A stretch of 62,222 nt of DNA, filler included, from Chrysochromulina tobinii (taxonomy: Eukaryota), in the NCBI GenBank assembly GCA_001275005.1. It is 8 parts of 8 records of this genome, joined end to end, with 100 filler letters (N's around TTAATTAATTAA, not from the genome) between each part and the next. Parts side by side here need not be neighbours in the genome. Positions count along the whole stretch, not along the records: positions 43,774 to 54,173 come from JWZX01001157.1; 7 more parts are not named here. The stretch is one strand, 5' to 3'. Numbering within the stretch: position 1 is the first letter of the stretch; each line of letters starts with the position of its first letter. A model generated the notes under the pieces. That model did not search any database. It was not told the DNA's origin and saw only the letters and a list, made by a program, of their open reading frames with translations. Made by a program: the position numbers and the translations under genes. Shown one piece after another: positions 19,202-55,492 of this stretch.

Positions 19202-22200
19202 GTGCCTCGGACCTCGAAGACAGGAGAAAGAAGCAAGAGGCAGAAGCTCACTCAACTCCTTCCAAAGAGTCGCTCCGCCGTCCTTGGGCTGCACACGATT
19301 GTGAGTACCGGAGCGCTTGATGGTAGTTTCGACTCTCTTCCCCCAAACTACCGGAATGAAAACTTTTTCACAGCCTGGGCGTTCGGGATGTCGGACGCCG
19401 ACGACGGCACCCGTGCAGCCAAGGCGCGCTGCCGGCGCAGTGCAAGCCGCTCGGCTGTCGATCGGCGCGCGTGCGTGTCTGCATACCTGGCCAAGAAGGC
19501 GATTGGCTCCAATGACAGCGTCGCGGAATATGTAGCCCGAAGCGGGCCCCGCCGCTGTGCGACCCCCTCTGACTCTATGAGTGATGCAGATCGCGTGGAG
19601 ATGGCACGTTGCTTGCGAGCCATGGCGCCACCCACGGCGGGTGCCGCCCTCGCAATGTCCACCCTCGTTCATCAGCATTTGTGGACGCCTCCGGCAGCGC
19701 CGCCGCCGCAGTGCAAGCCGCTCGGCACCTCGGCTACGACGACAACGGTAAGGGGTGCGTCTTCAGCCTCCGCCGAGTGCGTGAAGAGTGCCGGGATGGC
19801 CTCGTGGTCTGTCTCGGGGCTTGCGAGCGAGAATGGCTCCGAGTGCGGCCGTCATTGGCAGGGCACGGCCGAGGTGCGCTGCCTTTTTGCGGACCGCGAC
19901 GTGCTCTTCATTGGCAATAGCGTGATGCGTCGTCAGGTGTTCACACTTCTCGACTTGCTCGCTGGGCCAGCGGCGCATCGGCTCAGTGTGAACGGTGGCG
20001 AGACCGTGAATGTGAGCACGGCGGACGGCACGCCCGCGATGGCGCCGAGTGAGCTCCTTTCAAGCACAAGGCTGTGGGATCTTGATGGTCACGAGCATGG
20101 GTACCACGCCGCACAGCTGCTGACCATCGATCTCGCCACCGGGGCCCACCGCTTCCACCTTCCCCACAGGTGATTGCAATTGATGGCCACTGATGGCCTC
20201 TGATGACCACCGGGGCCCACCGCTTCCACCTTCCCCACAGGTGATTGCAATTGATGGCCACTGATTGCCTCTGATGACCACCGGGGCCCACCGCTTCCAC
20301 CTTCCCCACAGGTGATTGCAATTGATGGCCACTGATGGCCTCTGATGACCACCGGGGCCCACCGCTTCCACCTGCCCCACAGCGAGCTATGTGGCGTCGA
20401 GAGGGCTTATGCCAACTTCAACGCGGGCCGAGCGCGCCAATGGTGGTCCCCTTCCGCACAGGTGATTGCCACTGATTGCCTCTTGATTGCCATTGATTGC
20501 CACTGATGGTCCCCTTACGCACAGGTGATTGCCACTGATTGATGTCCACTGATTACCGCTGACCGTGCGCGCCACCGATCTCGCCGATCTCGCCGATCTC
20601 GCTGATATGACCGACTCGTCGATCTCGTCGATCTCGTCGACCAGATCGACGCGCAGTGGCTGAGCTCGAAGTGGCGAGATCGTGAGTGGCGGCCGCTCGT
20701 GTCAATGACTCTCGGATGGGATTCCACACGAGCACCCGTCGCCGTTACATCGACGGGTGCCGCGCAGCATGCAAGTGCTCGCCACGGCGCCGACGCGACG
20801 GGTGCAGCCGCGAACGCGAGCGAGCGAGCGCGAGCATGCCTGGAGCAGCCATCGGTGATTTGGGCGGGAAGTCATCGTGCGGGCTTAGTGCCCGGCGCGG
20901 CGCTTCCAAATAAGGACCTGCCTAATCAGGACCTGCCTCATCAGGGCACATCCCGTGCTGAGGCCGTGCGCCGTCAGCTGCTGGACGCTGTGCGCGCGCA
21001 CCTGGTGAAGCTCGATCCAACGGCCGCTGAGTGGGTGGGCAATCTCACCGTCCATCTCGACGAACGCCCAGCATGCAAGCGCTCACCACGGCGCCGTGTC
21101 CCTTCCCCACAGGTGGGCAATCTCACCGTCCATCTCGACGAACGCCCAACACAGCGCGCACCCAGCAGGGCGGCGGAGTCTACGCCCCCCCGCGCCCGTG
21201 CTTCCCACGCCCGAGCTTCCCCGAACGCATGGGTGGTCTTCCCTACCTACCATGGAGAGCGCCAGAAGTTCAATGGGTATCAGTGCTCATTCCCACTGAT
21301 GGCCACTGATTGCCACTGATTGCCTCTGATGGCCTCTGATGGCCTCTGATGGCCTCTGATTGCCTCTGATTGCCTCTGATTGCCTCTGATTGCCTCGTGG
21401 TATCAGAGCTCATTCCCACTGAGATGCCCGCTGCATGCCCTTCTGATTGCCTCTGATGACCTCTGATGACCTCTGATTGCCTTCCTCATCAGGTACTGCG
21501 GCGGTGCCATGCCGCCGGGCGAAGTCTGTAAGTGCACTACCACCGTGCCGCCCACGTGCTCAGACCGGCGCGCGTCGTGCTACGGCAAGCGGCTGTGCGC
21601 GCCGCTCGCGCCCGGCTCGGCGCGTTTCGTCGAGGCGGCTCGCGGGCTGGCCGCTGCGCTCTCATCGCCGTCGGCCGAATCTCGAGATCGCGAGCTCGCG
21701 CGGGGAGATCGCGAGCTCGCGCGGGGAGATCGCGAGCTCGCGCGGGGAGACCTCGAGCTCGCGATCTCCGTGTCCCGCGTGCGCGTCTCTCCCTTGTATG
21801 ACGACTGCTGGGAAGGGCGCGACCGGTGTATGGGGTACGCTGATTGCCTCTGATGGCCTCTGATGGCCTCTGATGACGGCTGATGTCGGCTGATGATGGC
21901 TGATGACGGCTGATGACGCGTGATGGTCTCCCTCATCAGGCAACGACCGTGCCACGAGCGCCTACGCAGCCCAGCATGCAAGTGCTCACCACGGCGCCCC
22001 CTTCCCCACAGGCACCGACCGTGCCACGAGCGGCTGGATGCGGCGTACATCTGCCGATCGACTGCACTGCTCTGTCCCCGTACGTGCTCGTGGCCTCTGA
22101 TTGCCACTGATTGCCACTGATGGCTCTGTCCCCGTACGCGCTCGTGGCCGCCGGGGGTGCATGCAAGTGCTCACCACGGCGCGGACGCGCTCGTGGCCGC

Positions 22201-23185
22201 CGGCCCTCAGCCGTTGGGGGTCTGCATGCAAGTGCTCACCACGGCGCGCCCGCACTTCCCCACAGGCACGCGCTCGTGGCCGGCGGCTCTCAAGCAAGCC
22301 AAGTCGTGGATCCCAGCTGCCCATCCCTCGGCGTCGCTCCTCTACCTCTATGATGGGCAGGTGATTGCCGTTGATTGCGACGGAGGCCCCCTCACTGCCC
22401 CCCATCTGCCACTGTTGGCTTCGGCGTCCCTCCATTACCTCCATGATGGGCGCCATGATGGGCAGACGCAGAATGCGATGGATGCGTCTCACTGATGACC
22501 ACTGATGACCTCCATTGCATCCATGATGGGCAGACGCAGGATGCAATGGATGCGACGTTTCGAAGCTGGGCGCCTCCCACGATTGGGTACGGCTCGCATG
22601 CAATCATCCTCGGGCCGCAGGTGATTGCCTTTGATGATCACTGATGGCCACTGATTGCCACTGATTGCCACTGATGGCTAAATATTGCCTCCGGCTCGCA
22701 TGCAATCATCCCCTGGCCGGCAGTTCGCCAACACACGCAGCGTCGGCGCGATGCGTCGCTCTCTCAGCCTGATGCGAGCCGCTCTCACTCATGCCGATCT
22801 ATGCCTGGGCCAACGTACGCTCGCCGTCTTCCGATCACCCGCGTTGGGGGTCTGCATGCAAGCGCTCACCACGGCGCGTCCGCACTTCCCCACAGGTACG
22901 CTGGCCGTCTTCCGATCTCCCGCGTTCAACTTCGACCCGGTGAACACCTTCCACCAGCAGGCTGCCTTTGCGCAGCGCATGCGCCCGATCGTCGAAGAGT
23001 TCGGCGCCGTCTTCGTCGATCTATTCCCAGCGACGCTCCGGGCGGCCTTCCCACCCCCATCGGTGCCCGACGCTGAGCAGATTGCCATCCGATTCGACCG
23101 GAACAGCGCGTTCCACTACCTCGACGCTGGGCGCTATCTCATGGCGCAGATCCTGCTCCACGTCCTCCACTTAATCTCCACTTAA
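19202..23185 (+). CDS. SGNH/PC-esterase-like (O-acyltransferase/esterase) protein, many introns
   Basis: N-terminal block CLFADRDVLFIGNSVMR and C-terminal DRNSAFHYLDAGRYLMAQILL. About ten repeat-derived introns lie between 20170 and 22895; exon limits are partly uncertain. Confidence 0.65.
20170..20382 (+). repeat. Intron made of three 71-bp units (core + duplicated upstream exon end)
   Basis: gtgattgcaattgatggccactgat...caccggggcccaccgcttccaccttccccacag x3 = 213 nt. Confidence 0.88.
21035..21112 (+). mobile_element. Family-B intron (gcatgcaag.gctcaccacggcgc...ccccacag) with a 36-nt exon duplication
   Basis: gtgggcaatctcaccgtccatctcgacgaacgccca opens both the intron and the next exon. Related cores occur at ~21973, 22159, 22224, 22854 and 51863-51932 (minus strand). 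Confidence 0.85.
22815..22895 (+). mobile_element. Family-B intron with a ~31-nt exon duplication
   Basis: gtacgct(c/g)gccgtcttccgatc(a/t)cccgcgtt is duplicated around the core gggggtctgcatgcaagcgctcaccacggcgcgtccgcacttccccacag. Confidence 0.85.
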
Positions 23186-28422: not shown

Positions 28423-28454
<32 letters not shown>

Positions 28455-28456
28455 CC
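28340..28456. repeat. Telomeric repeat (CCCTAA)n grading into CCCTCA
   Basis: About 14 CCCTAA units (one CCCGAA) then 5 CCCTCA at the contig start, C-rich strand oriented as expected at a chromosome end. Confidence 0.95.
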
Positions 28457-33201: not shown

Positions 33202-33555
33202 CGCTGACGGCGCCGCTGCTCTCGCCGATACCACCGACGCCGTTCTCCCTGTCGTCCTCGTTTCTGCCGACACTTGTCACGGCGTTATTGCTGTCTATTT
33301 TGCTGCTGTCTATCTTGCTGCTGCCGTCTATTTTGCTGCGGCCGTCTATTTTGCTGCGGTCTATCCTGCTGTTGCTGTCTATTTTGCTGCTGTTTTCTCC
33401 ACCACCACACGTATCGCCGCTCCTTCTACCACACGTCGTTCCCTTCGCTGCCGTGGAGCTGGCGACACGAGCGGTGTACGCGATGAGGTGCCCTCTCCGC
33501 GTTTCTACCGCGTTTCTCTCCCTTTCCTCGCCACGCCTGCGCCGAGGTTGATCGA

Positions 33556-39500: not shown

Positions 39501-41784
39501 GCGCGTCTTCTATATCTTTGACTCCACCTCTCCCATTCTCGCAGGAGAGCACTTTCGCCGCCTGAGTCTCCCAGCTCGATCGCGCATGCTCTGCGACGAT
39601 TGGCTCGCCTGGGCCATGTCGTTTGAGCAGCGCCTAGAGACGCTCACCTATTGGTGGTCGCACTCTCACTGCGGCCATTTGCCCGAAGCTGCCGTCGACG
39701 CGCTCGCCAAATCGTTTCTCGCAGGCGATCCGATGCCCCTCCCTCGCCCTCTCGAACCCCCTCGCCATCGGTCCATTCGGCACTATGCCAAGGGCTCGGA
39801 GCGCGACCTCATGCTGCACGTGTACAACCTACACGTCGTGCGGACGCACTACACCGCGCCCTCTTCGATGTTCGCACGTCCAGGGTGCCTCGAGCTTCTG
39901 CGGGTTGCCAAGCTCAACGATCAGCAGCGCTCCACCGTGTTGGCAGTTCGAGATGATCGAGTACGGCTCTTGGGCAGCCGAATCTTTCGGGACACGGGCC
40001 CGCATTCCCTCGGGGCGGTGCTTACTAAGCTGGGCTGCCCGTGCGGCAAGGGGCGACAGACTGTCGAGCATGTTCTCTGGGAGTGCGAGCTGTCCAGCGT
40101 CGTCGCGCGGCGCGCGACGCTCCTCACTCCCGCCTGCACCGTCCTTGGTACCGCACTTGATCGCTGCGAACCCATCACACGCGATCACGCTGTCTCCTCG
40201 ATTGTGCGCCGCGCTCTTGAACGCGGGCAACGCCCGGAGGCGTATCGCACGCTCACGGGTGCTGGGACGCCCCTGAGCATTTCGCGAGACGAGGCTCGGC
40301 AGGCTGCTCTCGCGCACGTACTCGGCATCGTTCAAGAGCCTCTGAACTGGTTTCGCCCGACCAGTCAGCTTGCCCGCCCTCTCCTCCATGCCTCTCTTGC
40401 AATGATTGCTGCCGCGATCCAGGCCTCCACGACCACACTCCGGCATGCCATCCTCACCAGCCGGCGCCGAATGACCCTCTCCTGCGCCCTCCAGCGGCTT
40501 CGGTATCAGACTTGGACCCACCCTAAGCCCGCAGGCACGCCGTGCAGGTGTTGTGCAATCCCCGGCTCGCCCGCGCCGGGCGTTCATGTCCTCGGGTCGC
40601 GTCGTCCGATCGATGGTGCTCGCGCTCTTCAAGCTGTTCAACAGCGGGAGGGCGTCCGCGCTCAGGGTCCTCCCCAGCTCTCGAGCATTCGCTCTCTCGT
40701 CACCCGTGCTCGTGAGGAAGCATTTCTCTCGAGCAGCGCTGCTCTCGAGGTCTCTTTTCGACTACAGCAGGATTGCCTCGCACGGGACGACGACGCATCC
40801 GCCACGTTTGCACGTGTCAATGACGCTCGAGCGCTTGCCGACGACGCTCGGACGCGTGCTGACGACGCTCGGGTGCTTGCTGATGCGCTCGACGGGATCG
40901 ACGAACTTTCTTCTACGCAGGCATGTGCAGACGCGGAGCGTGCATGCGCAGACGCGGAGCGTGCAAGTGTAGACGCGGCGCGTGCACTCGCTGCGCATCG
41001 CGCGGCCGTCATCGCAGCCGCCAATGCTGCTCGACTCTCGAACGCGGCGGACGCCCGCTATCGTGACCTCGACTCGCACGCTCATCGGGTCTCGGACTTT
41101 GCGTATTTCGCCGCCCAACATGTCTCTGGTATCATCCTCGACAGCCAACGTGCTGCGGTTCGATCACATCGGGCTCAGAAGGCGGCCGCGGCGGCGCGGG
41201 CGGCGGCGACGCCGCGCCTCACCCCTGCGGAACGCCGGGTGCTCACGGTCCAGCGTAAGCGTCGGCGGCGAGAGGAGCAGGAGGCGGACTCGACCGTCCA
41301 GTTTCTCCTCGCTAAACGACGCCTCGATGCGTGCCCGGCAGCCGCTGACATGGTCACTCGGGCTCGCGCTGCTGCGCGCAGGTGTCGCGCGAACGTCTTG
41401 AGTCTCGACGATCGACTGCGGGCGACCCGCCGATCGGCGATTGTGGCCAGCTACTTGGCTTTGCGACGCGAGGTGGTGGGCGCTAATCATGCGGTTCAGG
41501 AGATCGTTCTGCGTATGCGCACGGCTGCGCGCGACATGCGCAGAGGGGTGCTTGCTCGGAGACTACACGGGCCTCCCCCTCGGATAGGGTACGAGCGGCG
41601 AGTGTGGATCCGGCTCGCGGGGCTTACGCCGCCGCGGCGCTCGCGCGTGCGTGCTGCGGCAGCTGTGGCCGCCGCGAACAGCGGTCCTATTGGTACCTCT
41701 ACTATACATTCGGGGGAAGGGGGGCACCGGTCTGGAGCAGATGCTAGTCCGGCGCTCTCCCTTCCCCCACGACTTGCCGATTAA
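33556..41784 (+). CDS. LINE polyprotein: possible GNAT, APE endonuclease, reverse transcriptase, RNase H, zinc knuckle, helical/basic tail
   Basis: APE motifs LVWNAAG, VLNEI, LAVYG, VAGDLN, TLDHVL, SDH (34639-35478). RT motifs KKRDIGL, ADIQRFFPSMDR, GYFQGCLLS, LCADDL. RNase H motifs VGDGSW, DAEL, IFDSTS, SHSHCG...VDALAK. Knuckle CPCG...EHVLWEC. The listed start is TTG, so the true start is uncertain. Confidence 0.93.
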   Translation: MALSALQRNYPGLAPSRLRRIWSRLAGNAQFRGYQVGWAVVRGHGSDPLIAVAKLLVSSREVWVDELAATRDGSAAARWALLSALESALELRLTAPEAVVRLRVALAPSRDSRGAHGMYRNQLHLRDGVPELPGPWQHDCTEPGYVLMHGLVGELVARLCVVLSSRPNAPGTQFYWRTSCSIPAAFSLAFASTASLLAPIGTAASPDGAAASCTPPDAAPCDALDRSVLVPLSSVTPSAPAGSSRPPFDVDPAAGLLTPPPRGRSGTAWEDEGALLHAIVAASCEPSSACHAPPTDDDPTDVRPPPPPLSPSLPRLRFDTLPSSHPSTPTVDPAPSTSTGTQALVAPLLPSAPVLPPRGESLLVWNAAGWWCGDSESGSDEHQAIVASRYDVLNPLLRGRDAPTYIVLNEISGSMRDSAHPRGLGAWLRAAGYGHFFYPGGSTTRQRSDGSTGATGGVLLAWMRSETSACGSPHFDPKSMTIALDFRHRSCARDAPPMRLLAVYGAHRRNGREQALRAITRHVTQTRGCLVAGDLNVVPSSTWKCRARRMTVADEEFAALTDGGALLDAGTSMVHIVDLGLDHDRGQFSRAHWTATLADGSPQGTATLDHVLTAGLERGRWQRRAAWYAFGDDGKLLSDHMVIVVDRASRSVTSDDRGVHRPPRFLVSRWSGRQRAAFIASFERNLQQLRAGAWRACPGEARQSLAEGATAITQLVSLLNVAALAAEGSVRSDPRGDRLRRVHDGGGGLQGVKAQLQRQQGILRRVRVARLAVEHAAASLAALRHDVLAHLRLRAELQLQSALATERALYTPTSATYLARHDRSLHRALLRPYLGPPDQAAAVRSSAAASRLLRDITYYSHQLRKLERRADRPIWQGIADAMAGGGRDAIVAAMRRPTQRDGSHGGIMGLYRNDQPMVNRNGAQVPGEWISEPSAVRAEAGAIYRHIDDANFGAGTVDARVIGFHNALCQPPWPELPGHDGSEWRLPHECDFAAFCALLWRMHSNKATSLDRVSKEMLELLPDALRRPFYVAAMAVATPDARGARSKPAYWTRVPVKLLDKKVPSPCISKKRDIGLPSQLLKIQAGLYLPAYAAIMGRLPGNFGWTPGVAARGAALCGGLVLDHTHLLSHFLLAIYADIQRFFPSMDRGYVLIAEQWRGLPRDVREATLALYHDSCFLYETEHGLAEGAARPARDSGGVEFDFTTVQSRCGYFQGCLLSTEKAKIFMASLSEAIDTLVGGGGVRLWNGTFHGGRRYPSILCADDLLGSLTSWVAGIVFIRLLDEWADVSASHFGIADDASKTTFSAIFVDGSGVPHEAPAPPAFLAAARIGGRAIPRLPYDAEYAHVGDRRKLNGDQSPTRGKAVGLCMAWLKRVEQMCRCSPREFAHATYVGLASVIDAYAPLAPLTFAQAEAIEKVKRAIYKRRFRGLVSAACADRYLPDALRAAPQYGLLTAGLPEASRVGDGWFHCASLNAASIHAAFTDAISDGIDSQLRFCARALLSLTCFLWGSFGAHPATWSWVHLEHLLANPDPSVGSSSVGRVFATEVYMKNVALLRRLAALSNGDLAPSFNFTFEHVPPAGDPFDRTALIYSSKLAHDTLRLFEGDLISETTCVQLGRRRRPVWLLLSAGIVVRSHVCRADGSDFMTFAEAALVVPAFARRAGSALLASQRAWDQLITDLRDLDVETVPGEAVLDAQTIWRGTAFNMAGAPDGSAGTGPRAELDDLIQRMANGDVAAASEWTAAYRTWSAAPPPPRCERPLPSPTAEELCGPHTRFLVPARGGEIETIVRGRPAPTCSAVDAAVLARFQSQSWRVARDGRSLACSHGTELRQASVIVQLYAAALPIAIAAFDREQAAKAHRRLKVNEKRNLAGLDPLPPDEPTPEERSWQGGPGFCVALANATLDEMLADEQSQGFAYTAAVVGDGSWDPRRKRLSRAALMHTGACLGGALAADDLIGGTRDNYDAELAHRVDALARLEGQRVFYIFDSTSPILAGEHFRRLSLPARSRMLCDDWLAWAMSFEQRLETLTYWWSHSHCGHLPEAAVDALAKSFLAGDPMPLPRPLEPPRHRSIRHYAKGSERDLMLHVYNLHVVRTHYTAPSSMFARPGCLELLRVAKLNDQQRSTVLAVRDDRVRLLGSRIFRDTGPHSLGAVLTKLGCPCGKGRQTVEHVLWECELSSVVARRATLLTPACTVLGTALDRCEPITRDHAVSSIVRRALERGQRPEAYRTLTGAGTPLSISRDEARQAALAHVLGIVQEPLNWFRPTSQLARPLLHASLAMIAAAIQASTTTLRHAILTSRRRMTLSCALQRLRYQTWTHPKPAGTPCRCCAIPGSPAPGVHVLGSRRPIDGARALQAVQQREGVRAQGPPQLSSIRSLVTRAREEAFLSSSAALEVSFRLQQDCLARDDDASATFARVNDARALADDARTRADDARVLADALDGIDELSSTQACADAERACADAERASVDAARALAAHRAAVIAAANAARLSNAADARYRDLDSHAHRVSDFAYFAAQHVSGIILDSQRAAVRSHRAQKAAAAARAAATPRLTPAERRVLTVQRKRRRREEQEADSTVQFLLAKRRLDACPAAADMVTRARAAARRCRANVLSLDDRLRATRRSAIVASYLALRREVVGANHAVQEIVLRMRTAARDMRRGVLARRLHGPPPRIGYERRVWIRLAGLTPPRRSRVRAAAAVAAANSGPIGTSTIHSGEGGHRSGADASPALSLPPRLAD

Positions 41785-43773: not shown

Positions 43774-43776
43774 CCA

Positions 43777-43813
<37 letters not shown>

Positions 43814-44476
43814 GGCCGCCGCGGCCGCCGCCGATTCCGAGAAAGGCACGCAGCTTCGGAAAGATGCGCGCCAGTTTGGTCGCGAAGCGAAGGGTCTCGC
43901 CAGCTGGCAGCTGCTCGACGTCAGCATCGTCTTTGAAACCTGGTGGGTCCTCATTGCCAAGGCGACGAAACAGCTTCGTGAGCCACTCGACGTACTCGTC
44001 TGGATCCGTACTGACGGTCCAAACGTCGGCCAATTCAAAAACGGAGTCCAAGAAGAGGCGCTCGTTCAGGCTCTTATTGCCTTTCCTGTCTTCTTCCCAG
44101 GCCTGCTCTGCCTGTTGCTTGCATACCTCTGCGTCGGCAACTTCACCTTCTTCTGTAAGCGCGAGCCCAATCTTTGTGAAGACCATCACATACCTATTGC
44201 GGTCGACACTCGCCTTCTTGCCGCCACTGGTTACTGCTTGCCACCAAACGTCGAGGATGGCGAGCACATCGGGATGGCTCCGGTTCCTTGCGCGTGCCTT
44301 GAGGTTGTCTGCTGTGTACATGGCTTCATCACCTTGTTGCCACCACATCAGGTTCGCTAAATCCTCTGCCTTGGCTACTTTTGTGACCACCAGCGGTGGC
44401 ACCTCCACACCGGGCCTCCAGCCACGGGCCGCCGGCGAGAGTGGAGAGGACGGCGATGGAGGAGCTGCCTGCATCT
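43774..44476 (-). CDS. Conserved hypothetical protein with an EF-hand-like segment, 3'-truncated
   Basis: WEEDRKGNKSLNERLFLDSVFELADVWT...EYVEWLTKLF resembles an uncharacterised protist domain. Confidence 0.55.
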
Positions 44477-45048
44477 TGCCAGGTGTCCGCTCCGAGCCGC
44501 GAACGCTGTGAGCACCCTGCGTCCACCCACTCCTCACAACTTTTCGTGACGCGGTTGATGCGGGCGGGCGGGTCGGGAGAGGGGAGTGAAGTGCTCACAC
44601 CGCGCTACGCGCGCCCCCGTGGGCGTTCACACAACACATCGTCAGCACTAACGTGCTCTCCTCACCTAGAGGGATCGGCATCCTCGCGCAGTCCCCCACG
44701 GCGCGACCAGAGGGGAAGGAGGGCGACGCACGCGTCGGACCCCCCCACACACACAAGCCACCGACAGGGTACGAACGCGGCACGGCTCCAAAGCCGGCAG
44801 TCTCAGTCCTCCTCGCACTCAGTACTCTCTCAGCAGCCGCTCCGGTTGAGGGCGGGCGGGTGGGCAACCAATGGGCGGCTGCTGCGCACCCCCCTTCGGA
44901 CCCGCGGGGCCCCGACCACCCGACGGGCGGGCGCTGACCGCGCCCTCCCCCCGGCCGGTCCCCCCGCTCAGACGCGCGGCACTCGCGACGGTCTGACCCC
45001 GAATCGACAGCTGGAGCTGGCGCCGCCGCGGCGATTCCACACCTAACT

Positions 45049-45987
45049 ATGCATGCATGCGCGAGACCCGTTCTGCGCCTGCCACCCCCGGGGGGAAGAC
45101 TCACGCCCCCCCTTCAGGGCCCCCGCATCCGCGCTGAGACGAGCGCGACCTCCGCCGAGCGACGGCGGACGCGCCCCGGAATGCGTGCGATTGCGCTCTC
45201 TACCTTGCGACCTCGAGGCAGTCCGCTCCAAATGAGCAGCCTCACCGGCGGCCAGGCGGCGGGTGCCCTGGCATCATCGGCAGTGATCCTCGAGGCAGTG
45301 CAGGTTGCAGGCACGGCCGCAGCCCTGGCCGTTGCACAGCATCAGCTCGGAACGAGCAATCCTTTCGAGACCGTTGGGTCTCTAGTTGCCCTTTTGCAAG
45401 ATCTGGGACTCGCCGGCTACGCTGTCTTCTCGGCCATCGCGGTCTTCTTCCAAATCTTTCCGATTGTGAGCGCATATCTTGTGATGCTAACCGCCGGTGC
45501 CATCTTCGGAGCTGCCAAGGGCACCGCGACCGTGCTCATGTGCTCGACCATCGGCGCGACGCTCTGTTTCCTGATTGCACGCACGTTTGCTCGCGACGTC
45601 GTCATCGAGTCTGCGAAGGAGTCGACACAGTTCTTGGCTCTTGACAAGGCCTTAGGTGAAGCCACCTTTTCCAAATCAGTTACGCTCATCACACTTCTGC
45701 GCCTGTCGCCGGTGATCCCTTTCGTATGGGGCAGTTACGTCTTTGGTCTCCTGCCCATATCGATCTTCACCTTTGCCGCCGGTACCTTTGTCGGCTGCCT
45801 GCCGTATGCCGTCGCTGCGAGCATCTCTTCTGAGCAACTGGGGGTTGAGGCGGCTGTCCACGGCGAGGCCCTGAACCCATACCTGCTGGGCCTCGGAGTG
45901 GCTGCCACCATCGGAGCGCTCGGCGTCGCGGGCAACTTGGCGACCGATGCCCTCCGCGAGGCGGGCCTTGATGTCTCGACTGACTGA
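45049..45987 (+). CDS. VTT/DedA-family (TVP38/TMEM64, SNARE-associated) membrane protein
   Basis: LTAGAIFG...STIGATLCFLIARTFAR, LLRLSPVIPF and FAAGTFVGCLP. The start could be a downstream ATG (45181). Confidence 0.9.
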   Translation: MHACARPVLRLPPPGGRLTPPLQGPRIRAETSATSAERRRTRPGMRAIALSTLRPRGSPLQMSSLTGGQAAGALASSAVILEAVQVAGTAAALAVAQHQLGTSNPFETVGSLVALLQDLGLAGYAVFSAIAVFFQIFPIVSAYLVMLTAGAIFGAAKGTATVLMCSTIGATLCFLIARTFARDVVIESAKESTQFLALDKALGEATFSKSVTLITLLRLSPVIPFVWGSYVFGLLPISIFTFAAGTFVGCLPYAVAASISSEQLGVEAAVHGEALNPYLLGLGVAATIGALGVAGNLATDALREAGLDVSTD

Positions 45988-46501
45988 GTACATTAAAGCC
46001 GTTGAGTGCTTTCAGACACGACGCATGAATATCGAGCCCGGATTCCCGCGGATCATGCATATAAGGCAAGACGTTGACGAGCCATGACACGCATGAGAGT
46101 ACCGAGTACTGCCTTACGTATAACGGCAGTAACCACTTATTCAAGCCGCAAGCTAAACACGATATTGCGTACATAGTTGTCGTCCTTCTTACCCGTTAAG
46201 CTGACGTGATGTGAAACGGTGAAAGTCCGAGAGGCCACGGCAAAGCGCCGTTAATTATATCGCATATCCGATATCGCGGTTATGCGAGTTAACGTAAAAC
46301 TAAAAGTCCGTAACAATAATAAACGTATAGCCGCTAACAATAAACGTATAATTCGTAACACGGGGGCCACGAGCGGGTAGAGGCAAGAGCTCTAGGACAT
46401 TCGACGTGAAAGCTTGGGCGTTTGGGAGCTCGTCAGCTCGCACCGGGGCTATTCCCCATTCCTATCCCGTCACTCTCAAGCTGCAGACGGAATGACGGAT
46501 G

Positions 46502-49500
46502 TCATCCAAGGTGCAGGACAGAGCGTAGGGCGTTCTCCTCGAAGAGGCGCGTGCGGCGCGGAACCGCCCCGGCAGAGAGCGCCTGCTGCTGCCTCGGGCT
46601 CAGCAGGTCCGATCCCGAGCGTGGGTCCGAGCCCGACCGTGGCGTGGCGTGAGCGTGCCCGATCCGCGGCGTGATGATCAGCAGTGGGCTGGGCGCCACG
46701 GCGCTCACGGACGAGGGTCGACTCGAGAGGCTTCGCGCCAGCGAGGAGAGGCCGTGGCCTGATGAGGGACGCAATCAAGGGGCATTAGGAGGCAATCACG
46801 AGGAGCCATCAAGGGTCTCGCGCCAGCGAGGAGAGGCCGTGGCCTGCACCTGTAGTGAGCGAGCGAGTGCTGCAGCGAGAGCTCGTCGGCGTCTCCCCGT
46901 GCTGTGCGCGCGCCGCACCCTCCGGAGTGAGCAGCTCCAGGCCCAACTGATGCTCGCCACAGCGCGCAGCCCGGCGCTCAGCCTGGAGATGCTCGCCACC
47001 CCCGAGTGCCGGGCTGCGCGCTGTGGGGTCTCGTGGCTGTCTCGACATGGCTTGGTATCCCTGGAGGACCTCTCTTGCAGCCGTGAGCTCGGCCGAAGCC
47101 GCCACGTCGACGGACGGTGCGGTGGCCCATGCGGCGAAGGCAAACGATGCGGCGGCGGAGCCTGTCTGGCCGCCAGTCTCCGCGCCGACGCTGCCGCTGC
47201 AAGCGCCGAGCTGCAACTGGCTGAGCTGGAGCTGTTCCCAGGTTGAGCAGCTCAGCCGTGGCGTCGAGCCCACTGCTGGCGTCGAGCCCACGCCAGCAGT
47301 ACAGCCCACTCCAGCAGTACAGCCCGCGCAAGCCTCGGCCGCCACGGTGCTCGTGCCAACGGGGAGAGCGCCGGCGTGCCCCCCCTGCACGCGCCCGGCT
47401 CCTTCGACAAGCGCTCGAGACGACGCGCCTTCGACGAGCGCTCGAGACGACGCGCCTTCGATGAGCGCTCGAGCGCGCAGGTCGACGATCGCGGACTGCT
47501 TCGCTTGCTCCAGCAACTCCGTCTCCTGCCGGCGCTTCACCTCTCGCCCTGCCTCCTCCCACGCGGCGTGTGCGGACGTTTGCCAACGGGCGAGCTCCGC
47601 AACGGTCGCCGAGAGCTGCAGCACACGTTCCTGGTCTCCTCGTTCCGCAAGCTGCGCCATGCGCGCCACCGCCTCCTCGGCCACCGCTGCGGCCGTCTCC
47701 GCCTCCACCTTGTCAGCGCGCTCTGCCTCGAGAGCCAAGGCAGCCTCCGCGAGGGTCTCGCGCACCTGATGAGGAACGCAATCAAGGGTCATTAGGAGGC
47801 AATCACGAGGAGCCATCAAGGGTCTCGCGCACCTCCGCCACGTATTGATCGCGCTCGGCTGCCTCGGCCATGCTCGCCCTACGGAACTGCACGGCGTGCC
47901 CGCGCGCCGCCTCGAAGTCGCCCTCCGCATGCCGCAGCTCGAGATGCATCTGCGTCACCATGACCGCCGCGCGCGCCTCGGACGCTCGGCAGCGTGCCTC
48001 GGACGTTGCGAGCTGCTCGCGCAGTGCAGCCAGCCCGCTTGCCTGCTCGCTCAGCCGCCCTTCGAGCTCGGCACAGCGCGCGCCCGCCCGGGCCGACTCT
48101 TCAAGTGCCGTACTCGCCTGATGAGGGACGCAATCAAGGGTCATTAGGAGGCAATCACGAGGAGCCATCAAGGGTCTCGCGCACCTCCGCCGCGCGTGCT
48201 TGCGCGTCCCGACGGCTGAGCTGCCAGTTCGCCTCCGCGCCCGCGCTGGTGGAGCGCGCCGTCTCGAGCGCCTCCTCGAGCGCGTGGCGTGCTACGCGCC
48301 ACGACGCCTCCGCCTCGGCGCGCGCCGCCGCCGCTCGTTCTCGCTCGAGCGCCTCGCCGTCGGCGCGTCTGGCGTGCGCGGCAGCCTCCGCGGCCGCCGC
48401 GTGCGCGCGCTTCTCCGCCTCCGCCGCGCGCTTCTCCGCGAGGGTGAGCTTGAGTCGTATAGCGCCCAACTGCTTCTCCGCCGCGTTCAGCTCGTGCGCC
48501 ATCACGTAGACGCTCAGATGGGTCTCGTTCTGAGCTCCGACGAGCTCCGCCGAGATGGCGCGGCAGGCTTCGTCAGCCGCCGCAGCGGCGCCCTCACTCT
48601 CGCGCAGCTCGAGCTCGAGCGTCGTCTCGAGCACGTGCGCCTGTGCCGCGTGCAGGTTCCTTGTGGCCTCGAGCCGCGTGAGATGGCAGGACGACAAGCT
48701 CTGCTGCACGGCGCTCAGGCGCGAGGCGAACTCGCTCGCCTGCGCATCGGCCGCCGCCTCAATCGCCGCAATCGAGGGCGACGCCACCGGCAGCGGCAGG
48801 GTCGGCGGCGGCGGCGTCGGCGGCGCCTCGTATCGCCACACGTGTTGTGGGTGCAGAGGCTGGCTGCTCTGGGGTGTGGAGGGCGCTTGGGGGCTCAACT
48901 TCTCCAGAAGCCACGTAATGGCCTCCGGCAAGGTGGGGCTCGACTCCGCATGCAGGTGCTCACTACGGCGCGCGTTCGACTCCGCATGCAGGTGCTCACT
49001 ACGGCGCGCGTTCGACTCCGGCGGCGCGCCGCTGCCTCGCCAGCGATCGCCTGCGCCGTAGTGAGCACCCGCACGCGCGTCGCCCTGGATCCTCGCCAGC
49101 TCAGCGCTCACGCCGCTCAGCCGCTCCTCGAGCTCGCGCACGAGATTGGCCGTGCCCTCCTCAACGCGCCTCATGCGCTCCTCGTGCTCAGCCAGCCCGG
49201 CAGCTTCGCGCGCCGCGCATGCACGGGCGGACGCGGCGATGGCGGCGGCGGCCTCGTGCTTCAGCCGTTGGCGCATCTCTTCACCCTCCGCCGTCCCTTT
49301 GCGCACCAGAGCCTCACGCTCGGCGAGCAGTGCAGCCTCCCGCTCGGCGAGCTGCCTCTCGGCCTCGCCCGCCGCACGCGTAGCCGCCTCCGCCGTCTCT
49401 CTGAGGGCGCCCAACTCGGCGTCCGTACGCATCAGATCCACGAGCAGCACGCGCGCCTGCGCCTTGGCCGCCGCCGCCTCGTGCGCCCTCTGCGCCTGCA

Positions 49501-52500
49501 ACTGCTGGTGCAGCTCGGCCGCCGTCTTGGCCATATCTTGCTCACGACGGCGCGCCTCGGCCATCAGCTCGTTGAACCGTCTCTGCTCGTTGGAGACATG
49601 GTGCGCGGTGCGCAGCTCGATGACCCCACGCTCCATCGCCTGCGCCTCGAGTGCCTCGCGGGCCTCCACCTCGCGTTCCGCCGCCTCATGTGCACGTTGC
49701 TCGGCCTCAGACGCGCGCCGCTCCGCTTCCACAGCGCGCGCCTCGGCCGCCGCCTCGACCGCCATGGCCGCCTGCTGCATCGACGCGGCGGCCGCCTCGG
49801 CTTGCTCCGCTCGGCTGAGCGCCGCCGCTGCGCGCGTGCTGGCTTCACTCACCTGCCGCGCGGCCTCTCGAGTGGCGGAATGGGCTCTGTCGCTCAACTG
49901 CTGCGCTTCGCGCGACGCATGAGCCGCTTCGGCCTCCAACCTCGCTGTCGCGTCGCTCAGCGCGGATTGGGCCTGGCGCACCTCCTCGTGCGCCTTGTGC
50001 ACTGCCGCGTCGCGCGCCGCCGTTGCCGCGGTCGCCTTCGCCTCCGCGCGGAACGCGTCGTCACGGGCGCTCTGGCACAAGGCAATCGCCCTCGAGTGCG
50101 CCGCCTCGGCGGCTGTGGTGGCCTCGCACTGCTGCCCGAGCGCGCGCAGAGTCGTGTGGAACCCTTGCTCGACCGCCGCAAGCTCCGCGCTGAGCAAGAG
50201 CTCGTGCGCCGCCGCTTGGGCCTCGTGCAGCCGCTGCGCACGCGCCGCCCCCTCGGCCGCCGCCGCCGCCGCCTCCCAAGCTTCCGCCGAGGCATGCACG
50301 GACAGGCGCCGAGAGGACGTCACCGACTCGAGCGCCGCGTGCGTGCGCTTCGTCTCGTCGCCTGATGAGGGAGGCCATCAGAGGCCATCAGAGGTCATCA
50401 GAGGCCATCAGAGGTCCGCAGAGGTCATCAGAGGAGGTCATCAGAGGAAATCAGAGGCCATCAGAGGAGGCCATCAGAGGAGGTCATCAGAGAAGGTCAT
50501 CAGAGGAGGTCATCAGAGGCCATCAGAGGCCATCAGAGGCCATCAGAGGCCATCAGAGGCCATCAGAAGTCATCAGAGGAGGTCATCAGAGGAGGCCATC
50601 AGAGCTCGGTGCGCAGTTTCGTCACCTAGCTTGCGCTCAGCGGCAGTGACCAGTCGATCGGCGTCCCGGAGCGCCGCGCCGAGCGTCGCGCCCACCACGG
50701 CGCGTTCGGCTTGCTCTGCGAGCGAGCTTCGCATCCGTTCAACACCCGCGCGCGCGGCCTCGGCTCGTGCGCACTGCAGCGCCGCCGCCGTCCCGGCCGC
50801 CTCGGCCTCGGCGCTGGCGAGCGCAGTGCGCCACGTGGCACGCTCCGCACACGCTTCCGTCCGCCAGGCGGCGCGCTCCGCCGCCGCCTCGGATTTCTCC
50901 AAGTCCGCGCCGTCCAACAAGTGCTGGACGGCCGCGAGCGCGCCGTCGAGCTCCTGCTTCGCCTCGAGGATCCCGCTCGCAGCCGCCTCGTGAGCTGCCC
51001 TCGACTCTGCCCTCGACTCGCGGGCGGCTGTGCCGGACTTGCGCCGAGGAGGAGGCGAGGAGGAGGAGGCACGCCGGCGAGAGGGCGGCGGCAGCGGAAA
51101 GGCCGAAGAGGAGGAGGAGGCACGCCGGCGAGTCGGCGGCGACAGCGACCCAATGTCGAGGCGTGCCTGCTGCAAGTGCCCTTCGATGATTTCATTTGCA
51201 GTCGTGAACAGAGTCTTGTTGACATTGTCATCCAACACCCCGGCCGCGGCGGCCGCCCGTCGCGCCTTGGAAAGCGGGCTGAGCCCTATTCGGAGCTCCT
51301 CCTTGGCCGCGGCCGCGCGCCGCTCCGCCTTCGCCGCTCGCGCCTCGGCCGTCTTGGCCGCCTGCCGCGCGGCCGAGAGAGGGCTCAGTGCGCGCTCCGT
51401 CTCCTCCTCCGCCTCCAAGACGGCCACGCGAAGCATCGAGCGCTCTGTCTGGTGCAGCCGTTGCTTCTCATCGAACGCCTCGAGGAGCTTGCGATGCTTC
51501 TCATCGAACGCCTCGAACAGCTGCCGCTTCTCACCGTCCCAGGCTGCCGCCGCCTCCGCCGTCGCCTCAGCGAGGGCCGCCTTCTCGGCTGCGGCCGCCT
51601 CCATGCGCTCCGAGAGGCACTTGAGCTCGCTCTGAGCTCGAACTGCGCCTCGATAGGCGGCGGCCAGCTCAGCCTTGAGAGCCTCGATCGTCTCGACTGC
51701 TGCTGCTGCGAGCGCATCGGCATCGGAGACAGCCTCGCGGAGCAGCGCACGCTCGATCTCGAGCTCGGCGGCGCTCCCTGCCCACTGTTGTACCTGCTCA
51801 GCAAGCGTCGTCGCCTGCTCCTCGGCCAGCTCCGCTCGGCGCTGCCACGTGGCCAGCCGCACCTGTGGGGAGGGGGGCGAATCGTGAGCACTTGCATGCA
51901 GCGCGCCCTCGAGGCCACGTGGCCAGCCGCACCTCGAGAGCGCCTATCCCGTTCCTCATCTGCAGCCGGGTCGCGAGGACGCTCTGCTCGGCCACTTGCT
52001 GCTGGCGCTGCACGTCCGCCATTGCGTCCTCGAGCACCACCACCGTCGCCTCCACCTCCGCCAGCGCGTCGCTGAGCGCGCGGCCCGCTGCCGCCGCTTG
52101 CTCCCCCTCCAGCTTCAGCTGCGTCGTCTGCGCGGCCGCGTGCTCGAGTGTCGTCCTGTGCTGCACCTCCAGAGCCCCCAGCTCCTCCATGTACGCTCGG
52201 CTGGCGACGCTCAGCGCGCTCTCGGCCCGCTCAGCGCGCGCAGCGGCCGCGTTGGCGGCCTTTTCGAGCTGCATAAGGGTCGTCTTGTGTGCCTCGGCCC
52301 TCGCGGCTGCTTCCGAGCGCATACTCTCCACCTCATCCGCCACGGCCATGTGCTCGCGCATGCTCGCCTCTCGTGCGGCCGTCACGAGCGCACGGCGCTC
52401 GTCCTGGAGGCGCTGCTCGGCCTTCGCCACGGCGGCCTCGCGTTCCTCGAGGAGTGTCGTGAGCTCCTCGACTGCGAGCTCGCCCGTCTCGGCGCGCTGA

Positions 52501-53810
52501 CGCCATCCGTCCGCTCGGACGCTCAGAGAGCGGTGCGCGTCGGCCGTGTCCGCCAGCAGCGCCTCGAGCGCCTCGAGCACCTGCGCGGAGCGCCCGCACC
52601 CCTCCTCGAGCCGTAGCTCCGACAGCACACAGCACGTCGTCGCTTCCGCACACGCAGCCTCGCGGTAGATGCCAGCGAGGCGCTCGGCGCCGCGCCTCTC
52701 TGCGGCCTCGAGTTTCGTCTCTGCGGCCTCGAGTTTCGTCGCCGAGATTCGTCGCTCCGCGCGCCCCTTGACGTGCATGGCCAGCAGGCTCACGGCAAGG
52801 CGGCGCTGGCGCGCCTGGAGTCCGTCGAGGGCGGTCCGCAGCATGCTCGCCTGATGAGGGACGCAATCAAGGGTCATTAGGAGGCAATCACGAGGAGCCA
52901 TCAGGGCGGTCCGCAGCATGCTCGCCTCGTCTTCTGCATCCGCGAGAGGGCCACACAGTGCGCGTGCGACCACGTCGCTGTGGACCTCCACCGCCGCTTC
53001 CCTCGCCGCCGCCGCATCCGCCTGCACGGCAGCTAGGTGCTCAAGCACATGGCTCGGCCACACGTCACGCGCGGGCATCATCGGCATCGGGCTGGACGCA
53101 ACCACAGAAGGGGCCATCGCGGTCGGGCCCGGCGGCACACGCCGCGGCGACGCACGCTGCGGCGGTGGTGCGTGCGCTGCCTTGCTCGCGGTGGCCGGCG
53201 TGGGCTGCGTGATGCCACGCGCCTCGTGCTGCGTGATGCCACGCGGCTCGTGCTGCCACGCCTCATGCGGCTCGTGCTGCCAAGTCGCTGCACCCGCGGC
53301 TGCCAGCGGCGCTGCCGCAGCAAGGAACTCGCGGCGGCGCTCGTGCACGTCGAGGGCATGTGCGACTTCCTGCAGCTGCTCCATCTCTGAGAGAGGCGGC
53401 GGGCTCGGAGAATCTGCTTCGTGCTGCTCTAGCTGCGCAGCGTCCTCGGCCTGGCGGCGACGGCGGAGCGCATTCAGCTCGTGCTCGGCACGTAACAAAG
53501 AGGCATGCTGCCGCCTCTCCTCCTCTTCACTGCGGAGCTGGGCGAGCTCCGCCTCGCGCTGAGCGCGCTGCTGACGTAATTGCTCCTCCTGCTCTTGTTG
53601 TTTCGACGAGAGCTCGCGCACGGCGGCGCGCATCTGATCGAGCTCAGCGTTGGCGAGTGTGAGCGCCCTGGACGACCTCCACTCCGCGAGCTCCTTGTCT
53701 CTCAGAGACTCCTTGAGCTGCTGCCGCTCACGGACCGCCGCAAAGTAAACGGCGTCGCGACGCTCCCAGCGGGCCGAGGCGAGCGCATCATCGAAGCGGT
53801 TGGACGCCAT
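46502..53810 (-). CDS. Large Ala/Glu/Arg-rich coiled-coil protein (~2,226 aa, six introns)
   Basis: Removing introns 52851-52925, 51863-51932, 50362-50625, 48118-48184, 47766-47832 and 46759-46843 leaves 6681 nt (2227 codons) and links the listed ORFs in frame. Confidence 0.8.
46759..46843 (-). mobile_element. Family-A intron (GC-AG), 28-nt duplication
   Basis: Core tgatggctcctcgtgattgcctcctaatg.cccttgattgcgtccctcatcag; flanking repeat aggccacggcctctcctcgctggcgcga. Confidence 0.88.
47766..47832 (-). mobile_element. Family-A intron (GT-AG), 16-nt duplication
   Basis: Same core; aggtgcgcgagaccct at both junctions. Confidence 0.88.
48118..48184 (-). mobile_element. Family-A intron (GT-AG), near-identical to 47766-47832 but lacking its own duplication
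   Basis: Begins gtgcgcgagaccct, which matches the exon after the 47766 intron rather than its own downstream exon (gcgagtacgg). Confidence 0.88.
50362..50625 (-). mobile_element. 264-nt intron of ctctgatg(g/a)c repeats ending cctcatcag
   Basis: Splicing joins ERKLG to DETKRTHAA in frame; degenerate junction duplication. Confidence 0.8.
51863..51932 (-). mobile_element. Family-B intron, 21-nt duplication
   Basis: aggtgcggctggccacgtggc flanks ...gcatgcaagtgctcac...ccccacag. Confidence 0.85.
52851..52925 (-). mobile_element. Family-A intron (GC-AG), 25-nt duplication, in frame and stopless
   Basis: aggcgagcatgctgcggaccgccct is duplicated; reads through as ASMLRTALMAPRDCLLMTLDCVPHQ. Confidence 0.88.
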
Positions 53811-53989
53811 GATGGGTTGAAGATGAAGATGAAGACCCGTCGTGTGTGACAGTAGTTAGGTTGTAACATAACTTTGACGGTGAACTGTTTTCCCACTGCA
53901 CCCATTACATGGACTCCTTTGCGCTGCGTATGTGTAATATTTCATTACGGTACCAGAAGTCCCGACGTCGGCGTTGGTGTCGCGCAGAC

Positions 53990-54075
53990 CGCATGTTCTC
54001 GGCATGTCCTAGCATGTCCTAGCAAGCATGTCCCAGCATGTTCTCGCATGTCCTCGCATGTCCTAGCATGTCCTC
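53990..54075. repeat. 10-bp tandem repeat gcatgtcct(a/c)
   Basis: About eight copies upstream of the coiled-coil gene. Confidence 0.85.
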
Positions 54076-55035
54076 AAAGAACCCCGGCACCTCGGCCACC
54101 GTTTGGAGTGATTCTGAAGCGGTCTGTGGGGGGGGGGGGGGTTGTGTTGTATGCGTGGCCTCTACTCGGCGGCNNNNNNNNNNNNNNNNNNNNNNNNNNN
54201 NNNNNNNNNNNNNNNNNTTAATTAATTAANNNNNNNNNNNNNNNNNNNNNNNNNNNNNNNNNNNNNNNNNNNNAAAAGTTTTGACAGGGGGTTTATGACA
54301 GGTGACACTTAGCTCTTGTGCACCGCCTTCGAAGTCGAGAGCCGTGCGTGAGGATCATCCAACTCCGGATCATCGATGAGATCCATGCACACCGGCCTTG
54401 ATAGAACTCGAGGTGTGTCAGGAGGTCGCTGAATCACGCGAGCAGAAAGGAAGGTAACATGGACGGGTCCGGTAAGAAGACATATTGAAGCCAAGCATCC
54501 ACAGGCAACGAACGAAGAAAATCGCGATAACGACATGCCTGTGACACGCACTGAGACTCACTGGTGCTGCCTTGTTCTTGCAGTTGAAGTAGTTTGCTAT
54601 GTACAGCAACCACATGTAGCACTTCACGTTCAAGATGAAGTTCGGAATCGTCGAGTAGAGATCTCAGAGTGCCACATCGATTGGCAAGAAGAATATCACG
54701 GAACGCCAGTGACAGTGGAATGCAACTGATGACCTCCATGTACTCAGAGGGAATGATGACGTCACGCAAAAAGCAAAACAAAAAGATATGCCAAGCACTG
54801 CACTGCTGATCATATTCCAGAACCCAGCCTTGAACTGCCGTGACTTGCGACAGGAATTCGCATTCGGCGCGAGAGGACGGGCTGCACAATGACGACAAAG
54901 ATGTCGCGTCGGATGCAGATCGGACGCGAACCAGCGATCCGTGGGACACGAGGGCACCCCCGACCAAAGGCCAAGAAGTCCCCCCGGCGGACATGGATTT
55001 CGCGCGAAGTGGTCTCAACAAAAAGACAACGAGGT

Positions 55036-55492
55036 GCGAAACCCGGACTTCCGAAGTCCGGGTTAGGCACCTGTCCCGAGTACCCGGACTTGGCAGGTGC
55101 CTAACCCGGACTTAGCCAAACGAGGGCGGGAAAAGGTCCGGGATAGTTGCCTAACCCGGACTTAGATAACGCTGAAGGTGCGTAACCCGGACTTCCCAGC
55201 AATACCTAAGTCCGGGTTAGGGACCGGGCACAAGTCCTTAACCCGGTCTTCACACCTCCAAGTCCGGGTTAAGAACCGGGCACGGTTCCCTAACCCGGGA
55301 CAATTTGAATTTTCAAATATCCAAGTCCGGGTTAGGGACCGGGCACAAGTCCCTAACCCGGTCTTCACACCTCCAAGTCCGGGTTAGACACCCGGGCACG
55401 GGTTCTTAACCCGGACTTGGCCAAGTCCGGGTTAGGCACCTCTGGCCAAGTCCGGGTTAAGAACCCGTGCCCGAAAGATGTCCGGGTTACGC
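55036..55492. repeat. Array of inverted taacccggac/gtccgggtta motifs
   Basis: About 20 motifs in mostly alternating orientation; a ~64-bp block is repeated at 55208 and 55323. Confidence 0.9.

What the first reader, a model, noticed from the sequence alone, without database searches (positions are those of the whole stretch)
46759..52925. Intron-gain system: conserved ~50-nt core inserted between long, variable exon duplications (family A)
Seen: four near-identical cores lie in one gene, each ending cctcatcag. In three, 16, 25 or 28 nt of the host junction (AG|GT or AG|GC plus downstream exon) is duplicated, so the duplicate supplies the donor, the core supplies the acceptor, and splicing restores the exon exactly. 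Established: characterised Introners are mostly MITE-like with short fixed-length target duplications. Inference: long variable duplications and the lack of long TIRs suggest another route, such as templated insertion during break repair or replication. I cannot tell whether this has been described for this lineage.
Basis: partly seen in the sequence, partly recalled or inferred. Interest (0 to 1): 0.85.

Follow-up and report, generated by a model that had tools for sequence, protein, structure and literature searches.

The report
Introns seeding new introns next door
Four short introns in one gene of a likely alga share the same tail and sit beside doubled pieces of the gene, and relatives lack two of them, so they are likely young introns made when DNA copying slipped onto a neighbouring intron, which would give a rare traceable view of how introns are born without a jumping gene.

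Summary
The four 50-nt cores and the 16, 25 and 28-nt duplications are real. RNA contigs skip all four, and six introns give one open 2,224-aa frame. Corrections: A1 is spliced as 91 nt from a GT 6 nt upstream of the duplicate, losing two codons; A3 carries A2's duplicate, not its own; the RNA skip at A4 cannot be told from an A4-less allele. An exact 40-nt core scan of metagenomes hit only this gene (10 of 10 stretches), so 'family A' looks gene-local. Relatives lack A4 (30 of 30 proteins) and A1 (16 of 40): recent gains. Duplicate-to-core junctions show 3-7 nt microhomology to a neighbouring intron, and two exonic inserts in this gene have the same duplication-plus-local-template anatomy in inverted orientation. 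Best reading (0.55): DNA template switching copies a nearby intron's 3' half while duplicating 14-36 nt, and selection keeps spliceable products. Rivals: reverse-transcribed intron RNA (an intact LINE lies in the window) or a Replitron-like element. The scan noted this footprint before in another piece of this genome (e1-2577349), read there as a mobile family.

The parts
46502..53810 (-). Host gene, 7 exons, 2,224-aa Ala/Glu/Arg-rich likely coiled-coil protein of unknown function
   Evidence: Open frame after removing six introns; 8 of 8 distinct exonic indels in orthologues are multiples of 3; intron-free relatives end in the same C-terminus; no Pfam family below E 0.05 in 4 exon stretches
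52851..52925 (-). Intron A4, 75 nt, GC-AG, phase 0, in frame without stop; 25-nt duplication (52828-52852 = 52903-52927); youngest gain
   Evidence: Skipped in 3 of 4 RNA runs, confounded by a likely A4-less DNA copy; present in window and L006, absent in 30 of 30 related proteins
51863..51932 (-). Intron B, 70 nt, GT-AG, unrelated core, 21-nt duplication
   Evidence: Skipped in 4 of 4 RNA runs; unspliced in DNA run X1
50362..50625 (-). Predicted intron of 10/13-nt tandem repeats, 264 nt, same acceptor nonamer as A, degenerate likeness of its 5' end to the downstream exon
   Evidence: Needed for the open frame; no RNA joint in 4 runs; length varies among alleles
48118..48184 (-). Intron A3, 67 nt, GT-AG; end-to-end copy of A2 including A2's 14-nt duplicate, plus 7 shared upstream exon bases
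   Evidence: Skipped in 1 of 4 RNA runs, 30 nt on the short side; sister lineage has its own 18-nt duplicate here in 15 of 16 proteins
47766..47832 (-). Intron A2, 67 nt, GT-AG, 16-nt duplication; likely the oldest A copy and local parent
   Evidence: Skipped in 2 of 4 RNA runs; present in 64 of 64 proteins that show the site
46759..46849 (-). Intron A1, spliced as 91 nt from a GT 6 nt upstream of the 28-nt duplication (85 nt if the duplicate's GC were used)
   Evidence: 91-nt skip in 1 of 4 RNA runs; absent in 16 of 40 related proteins, which keep the two codons
46960..46999 (-). Exonic in-frame 39-nt insert: inverted copy (22 of 23 nt) of 47004-47026 between two copies of a 12-nt duplication
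   Evidence: present in 23 and absent in 14 of 37 related proteins
48940..49020 (-). Exonic in-frame 36-nt insert (two tandem copies): inverted copy (23 of 25 nt) of 49053-49077 beside an 8-nt duplication
   Evidence: absent in 13 of 14 related proteins, all 13 of the sister lineage
21035..22895 (+). Second gene on another contig with four predicted B-core introns carrying 36, 21, 21 and 31-nt duplications
   Evidence: sequence only, no RNA laid here

Best explanation
These are spliced introns whose 3' halves match each other and whose 5' ends repeat the next exon, likely made when a DNA polymerase copying or repairing the gene switched template onto a nearby intron and back. Steps. (1) Shown: each intron is [copy of the first 14-36 nt of the next exon] + [35-55 nt ending in a neighbour's acceptor]. 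(2) Shown at protein level: A4 and A1 are missing from relatives; inferred: they are gains. (3) Inferred: the growing strand passes a GT/GC site, stalls 14-36 nt further on, pairs through 3-7 nt of microhomology with an existing intron 0.35-6 kb away, copies through that intron's branch region and AG, then re-pairs at the GT/GC site upstream, which doubles the stretch in between. (4) Inferred: most such events are lost; those kept are the ones where the doubled stretch starts with a usable donor, so the fixed acceptor end is a product of selection. (5) Shown as allele differences, inferred as order: later switches overwrite the 5' parts with the neighbour's sequence (A3, one A1 haplotype), the donor can slide (A1), and the duplicates decay (A2 in the sister lineage).
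For: Locality: 10 of 10 metagenome stretches with the exact 40-nt core are this gene; a second gene has its own cluster of four B introns. Junction microhomology to a neighbour where splicing sets no constraint: 6, 3, 7, 5 and 4 nt in 5 of 6 junctions examined, 1 nt (4 with a one-base slip) in A4; random joins reach 3 nt in 9%, 5 nt in 1.3%, 7 nt in 0.1% (parents were chosen after looking, among about three candidates each). Parent flank carried along: 6 nt in A1, 14 nt in A3, 8 nt in B22895. Two unrelated cores and a pure repeat tract (5879-5953, 19-nt duplication) share the anatomy, so it is not tied to one sequence. Two exonic inserts in this gene are duplication plus an inverted copy of DNA 25-80 nt away, lineage-specific, with no splice signal; exonic length variants of 9-36 nt are common among alleles. 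No hairpin (z 0.15-1.2).
Against: The acceptor nonamer and the B motif also occur in other genes (loose ends), and an earlier unchecked note reports over a hundred related introns (e1-2577349), so spread is not only local. The locality test used one strict 40-nt pattern in a collection that may hold the genome only in part; no whole genome was available. Microhomology and variable duplications are also expected from LINE insertion and are described for Replitron-1. Distances of 1-6 kb are long for polymerase-theta-type templating (recalled). The acceptor-side match of A4 to A3 (5 exon bases) is weak, because an unrelated pair (A2, B51863) also shares 5. 6 of 14 acceptors show no duplication. 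No repair or replication enzyme was examined.
Confidence: 0.55

Rival explanations
1. Reverse transcription of intron RNA: a LINE enzyme, or RNA-templated repair, primes on the 3' AG end of an intron just excised from the same nascent transcript, copies about 50 nt, and joins the 5' side by microhomology; staggered nicks give the 14-36 nt duplication.
For: Geometry fits target-primed reverse transcription: fixed 3' end, variable 5' end, variable duplication. An uninterrupted 2,765-codon frame at 33487-41784 has an endonuclease domain (PF03372, E 5e-06) and motifs that I read by eye as reverse transcriptase motifs (motif knowledge recalled). Dualen LINEs make long variable duplications (PMC9977147, passages). 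A3 is an end-to-end copy of A2.
Against: No Pfam reverse transcriptase hit up to E 1 and no PDB hit. The cores share at most 10-11 nt with that contig. A LINE acting in trans gives no reason for same-gene clustering. The inverted exonic inserts need no intron RNA. A3 shares 7 upstream exon bases with A2.
Confidence: 0.2
2. Tiny non-autonomous transposons (introners) moved by an HUH enzyme of the Replitron/Helitron kind, with one exact end, one fuzzy end and variable duplications, perhaps hopping locally.
For: Replitron-1 insertions have one fixed end, a fuzzy end taken from the parent's flank and variable-length duplications (PMC10288648 section 9); a Replitron protein is reported at one locus of Chrysochromulina tobinii. 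Related cores occur in several genes (e1-2577349).
Against: No terminal direct repeat, no hairpin, only about 50 nt against 52-53 nt needed at each Replitron end; target is not RG on the matching strand; exact core found in one gene only; unrelated cores behave alike; no transposase in 18 long frames scanned.
Confidence: 0.15
3. Old introns whose sequences were homogenised and whose 5' ends were overwritten by gene conversion; the absences are losses by slippage between the duplicates.
For: Conversion is visible: A3 differs between lineages, and A1 has two 5' haplotypes (10 and 14 of 24 proteins). Direct repeats allow exact loss.
Against: A4 is absent from the sister lineage, from most close alleles and from a 50%-identical relative, so many losses would be needed. 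The duplicates themselves need an origin. A1-less relatives keep the two codons that the observed splice removes.
Confidence: 0.1

Closest known systems
Intron gain by repair of staggered double-strand breaks in Daphnia pulex (PMC4202315; abstract and passages)
   Same: Population-level presence/absence, direct repeat of exon sequence at the far end of the intron, parallel gains at one site, small coding changes when a nearby splice site is used.
   Different: Repeats there are 4-12 bp and the source of most inserts is unknown; here 14-36 nt and the source is a neighbouring intron.
Introners that co-opt the 5' site from the duplication and carry the 3' site (Symbiodinium, Polarella classes 4/5, 6/8/10; 10.1101/2020.10.14.339549 parts 1-2 of 4; 10.1101/2022.06.06.494994 passages)
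   Same: Donor from the duplicate, acceptor from the insert, GC and GT donors, near-identical copies.
   Different: Those have fixed 3-8 nt duplications, mostly inverted ends and hundreds of dispersed copies. The Chrysochromulina example has 4-bp duplications and the opposite geometry. A 2025 survey lists 0 families for C. tobinii and a 5-copy Emiliania family of unknown class with '10bp terminal direct repeats' that co-opts 5' and carries 3' (PMC12130899 supplements), the nearest listed case.
Replitron-1/N1 of Chlamydomonas (PMC10288648 section 9 and passages)
   Same: One exact end, one fuzzy end with parent flank, variable duplication.
   Different: 0.9-3.6 kb, terminal direct repeats, hairpin, RG target, under-represented in genes, not reported to make introns in the passages seen.
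Tandem genomic duplication and intron transposition by reverse splicing (review PMC3443670, passages)
   Same: A duplicated AG|GT-like site gives the donor; an existing intron is reused, also within its own transcript.
   Different: Plain duplication has no foreign core; reverse splicing makes no 14-36 nt duplication. This case joins both.

Membership tests
U2-type spliceosomal intron | GT/GC-AG ends, removed from RNA | tested here: met
   Joints for A1, A2, A3, B in RNA contigs while DNA run X1 runs through those sites unspliced
U2-type spliceosomal intron | A4 removed from transcripts of the A4-bearing allele | tested here: inconclusive
   Skip in 3 of 4 runs but an A4-less DNA copy is likely present (table 8)
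Introner (MITE-like) | Near-identical introns at non-homologous positions | tested here: met
   49-50 of 50 nt among four copies
Introner (MITE-like) | Copies dispersed over many genes | tested here: not met
   Exact 40-nt core: 10 of 10 stretches are this gene; looser relatives not scanned genome-wide
Introner (MITE-like) | Fixed short target duplication | tested here: not met
   16, 25, 28 nt; 14-36 nt over 8 sites
Introner (MITE-like) | Terminal inverted repeats | tested here: not met
   Only a 5-6 nt inverted match at the core ends (sequence); folding no better than shuffles
Replitron/Helitron-type HUH element | One exact end, fuzzy other end with parent flank, variable duplication | tested here: met
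   against PMC10288648
Replitron/Helitron-type HUH element | Terminal direct repeat and subterminal hairpin | tested here: not met
Replitron/Helitron-type HUH element | Autonomous partner with matching ends | not testable with these tools
   No whole genome held
LINE-mobilised retrocopy (TPRT) | Fixed 3' end, 5' truncation, variable duplication | tested here: met
LINE-mobilised retrocopy (TPRT) | Poly(A) or 3' tail shared with a LINE | tested here: not met
   No tail; at most 10-11 nt shared with the contig of the one LINE-like frame in the window; other LINEs of the genome not seen
Break-repair intron gain (Daphnia type) | Recent gain with exon-derived direct repeat at the intron end | tested here: met
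   A4 and A1
Break-repair intron gain (Daphnia type) | Dependence on a repair or replication enzyme | not testable with these tools
   Needs mutants or de novo events

The most novel reading that the evidence does not exclude
This lineage gains introns continuously and genome-wide without any transposon: existing introns seed new ones nearby through the cell's own template switching, giving gene-private intron families whose parent-daughter trees can be read from junction scars and whose youngest members still segregate in wild populations and in culture. A bolder variant (about 0.2) is that the template is the excised intron RNA, copied back into its own gene by a LINE enzyme.
Probability: 0.4. 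Interest if true: 0.85.

Novelty: new variant of a known kind. Interest (0 to 1): 0.7.

Why it matters
Where the sequence of a new intron comes from is unknown for most gains that are not transposons (PMC4202315, passages). Here the likely parent, the junction scars, an intron-free allele and RNA all exist for one gene in an organism that is in culture, so template switching, RNA copying and transposition make different, countable predictions. Introner screens that ask for dispersed families with fixed duplications would tend to miss or misfile such gene-private families. Gene finders also read through these introns (the in-frame A4, the retained B in 26 proteins).

Tried and rejected
No whole genome is held, so no genome-wide count. 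Short acceptor and repeat motifs found nothing in viral contigs and five prokaryote matches that I did not use (loci L009-L013 left out). Assembly artefact rejected. MITE reading rejected. The 85-nt splice of A1 was not seen, but only one RNA contig spans the site. No RNA joint for the 264-nt repeat intron in the runs laid; repeats break contigs there, so this says nothing against it. A first start codon was in the wrong frame and was corrected. P0089 first looked A2-less; it holds an in-frame A2. Host function: Pfam and one Atlas look-up (best 0.85, unnamed, low recognition) gave nothing; a second Atlas look-up got no answer. Broad acceptor motifs mostly hit non-introns and its control was inflated by tandem repeats, so it was replaced. 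Literature: ten searches showed no paper that describes this anatomy in haptophytes; the library lacks most subscription papers, the Oikopleura primary paper was not available (seen only through a review passage), the 2022 supplement was cut and its per-family duplication table was not read, and 2 of 14 files of the 2025 supplement were not searched.
Full report
Setting. The window is eight contigs joined by N spacers; the finding lies on the contig 43774-54173. No whole genome is held. I did not test the taxon.

Observation. Four cores match over 50 nt at 49-50 positions and no other copy lies in the window. A1, A2 and A4 are bracketed by perfect 28, 16 and 25-nt duplications that begin with AG and run into the downstream exon. 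A3 has none of its own: it equals A2 from donor to acceptor and shares 7 more upstream exon bases. Removing four A introns, one B intron and one repeat intron gives an open 2,224-aa frame; keeping any one but the in-frame A4 cuts it short. In orthologous contigs 8 of 8 distinct exonic indels are multiples of three and 3 of 4 intronic ones are not.

Splicing. Of 21 runs listed I laid five RNA runs and one DNA run, all as contigs. In one search the joints are B in 4 of 4 runs, A4 in 3, A2 in 2, A3 in 1 (30 nt on the short side), A1 in 1, and the repeat intron in none. DNA run X1 passes unspliced through the A1, A2, A3 and B sites, so those skips are splicing. A1 is skipped as 91 nt from a GT six bases upstream of the duplicate. 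And at A4 the X1 contigs break exactly at the duplicate, with five extra letters and raised depth, which I read as an A4-less copy in the DNA; the RNA skip at A4 is therefore not proof of splicing.

The family looks gene-local. An exact 40-nt core pattern in the metagenome collection gave 10 stretches on 5 contigs; all align to this gene. One contig is 99.95% identical to the window and is not independent; the other four differ by 0.8-1.5% in exons. Other genes in the window share only 9-11 exact bases at the acceptor. The anatomy, however, is general: 5 of 5 B-type and 3 of 9 A-type acceptors have 14-36 nt duplications, against 0 of 170 cross pairs. Four of the B introns cluster in one gene on another contig (sequence only), and three of them have no AG before the donor, so there the duplicate starts at the GT/GC itself.

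History from relatives. Three protein searches gave 42 hits; I listed members for 14 of these clusters (15 of 16 and 15 of 29 members for the two largest). The gene calls read into introns, which shows intron state; members are not independent samples. A4 is absent in 30 of 30 proteins that span the site; 26 of them read into intron B unspliced, one comes from a 50-kb contig, and several come from assemblies whose word length exceeds the duplicate (word length recalled). A4 is present in the window and L006. A1 is present in 24 and absent in 16 of 40; 14 of the 16 start inside unspliced A2, and all keep the two codons that the 91-nt splice removes. So A1 likely inserted at the duplicate's AG|GC and the donor then slid. 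A1 has two 5' haplotypes: a longer exon-type duplicate (14) and one ending in A2's sequence (10). At A3 the sister lineage (about 85% identical) has its own 18-nt duplicate before a related core (15 of 16), so the window's A3 was converted by A2 or gained in parallel. A2 is present in 64 of 64, and its duplicate has drifted from the exon in the sister lineage. Order inferred: B and A2 old, A3 shared in position, A1 lineage-specific, A4 still segregating.

Junctions. Where the duplicate meets the core, splicing sets no constraint. Overlap with a neighbouring parent is 6 nt (A1, window type), 3 nt (A1, exon type), 7 nt (A3), 5 nt (B21112), 4 nt (B22895) and 1 nt, or 4 with a one-base slip (A4); random joins reach 3, 5 and 7 nt in 9%, 1.3% and 0.1%. 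Parents were picked after looking. Three daughters carry 6-14 nt of the parent's flank. The acceptor-side match of A4 to A3 is not counted, since an unrelated pair does as well. Two exonic, in-frame, lineage-specific inserts in this gene are a short duplication plus an inverted copy of DNA 25-80 nt away; they show duplication with local templating in the absence of any splice signal.

Mechanism. I favour DNA template switching during replication or break repair, filtered by selection for a usable donor and acceptor (0.55). Reverse transcription of intron RNA fits the fixed 3' end, and a likely intact LINE lies at 33487-41784, but it has no RT hit in Pfam or the PDB, shares nothing with the cores and does not explain locality (0.2). 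Replitron-1 leaves the same one-exact-end, fuzzy-end, variable-duplication footprint (PMC10288648), but the cores lack its terminal repeats and hairpin (0.15). Homogenised old introns with losses explain A3 and the A1 haplotypes but not A4 (0.1).

Comparison with print. Daphnia gains have 4-12 bp repeats and mostly unknown sources (PMC4202315). Dinoflagellate introners share the donor-from-duplicate geometry with fixed 3-8 nt duplications. Marine Chrysochromulina introners are known, and the figured one has 4-bp duplications and the opposite geometry. The 2025 survey lists none for C. tobinii and one small unclassified Emiliania family with 10-bp terminal direct repeats. Hypoxylon sister introns have no flanking duplication (PMC8469720, passages). 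A 2024 review had no passage on haptophytes (PMC11282704, passages). Ten searches (listings and abstract starts) showed no description of this anatomy; unread supplements and subscription papers may hold one. The scan itself noted the duplication footprint in another piece of this genome and read it as a mobile family; I confirmed the footprint in other genes here but not its count, and my locality result differs from that reading.

Verdict. Real, recent intron gains with traceable local parents; a new variant of break-repair intron gain that borrows from intron transposition, not a member of the MITE-like introners. Interest 0.7.

Noticed in passing
window 33487-41784 (+): Uninterrupted 2,765-codon frame with an APE-type endonuclease domain and motifs that look like reverse transcriptase: a likely intact, very large LINE that Pfam's RT model misses.
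   Followed up: partly
window 51767-53810: DNA depth about 80 against about 49 elsewhere in run X1, a loose end at 51767 in RNA run X15, and three proteins (P0018, P0032, P0033) with a foreign C-terminus suggest a second, transcribed copy of the gene's first 2 kb fused to other sequence.
   Followed up: partly
window 19700-23200 (+): Intron-dense gene with stacked units at single sites: a 71-nt intron-like unit three times in tandem (20136-20382) and an A-type acceptor followed directly by a B-type intron (21939/21940).
   Followed up: partly
P0055 and P0089 (A2 site): P0055 reads as two A2-like units in tandem; both proteins read through an in-frame 66-nt A2.
   Followed up: partly
window 5887-5951, 13363-13509, 21296-21396, 21839-21930, 50371-50604: 10-nt repeat tracts fill introns on four contigs; each unit holds a branch-site-like word and a TGA, and the acceptor nonamer resembles an inverted unit.
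   Followed up: no
window 28340-28456: About 19 copies of CCCTAA at a contig start, a likely telomere.
   Followed up: no
window 55033-55473: Cluster of nested direct and inverted 24-80 nt repeats, possibly an element end or palindromic satellite.
   Followed up: no
window 54174-54273 and six similar places: The window is eight contigs joined by N spacers with a 12-nt linker, so neighbourhood across spacers means nothing.
   Followed up: yes
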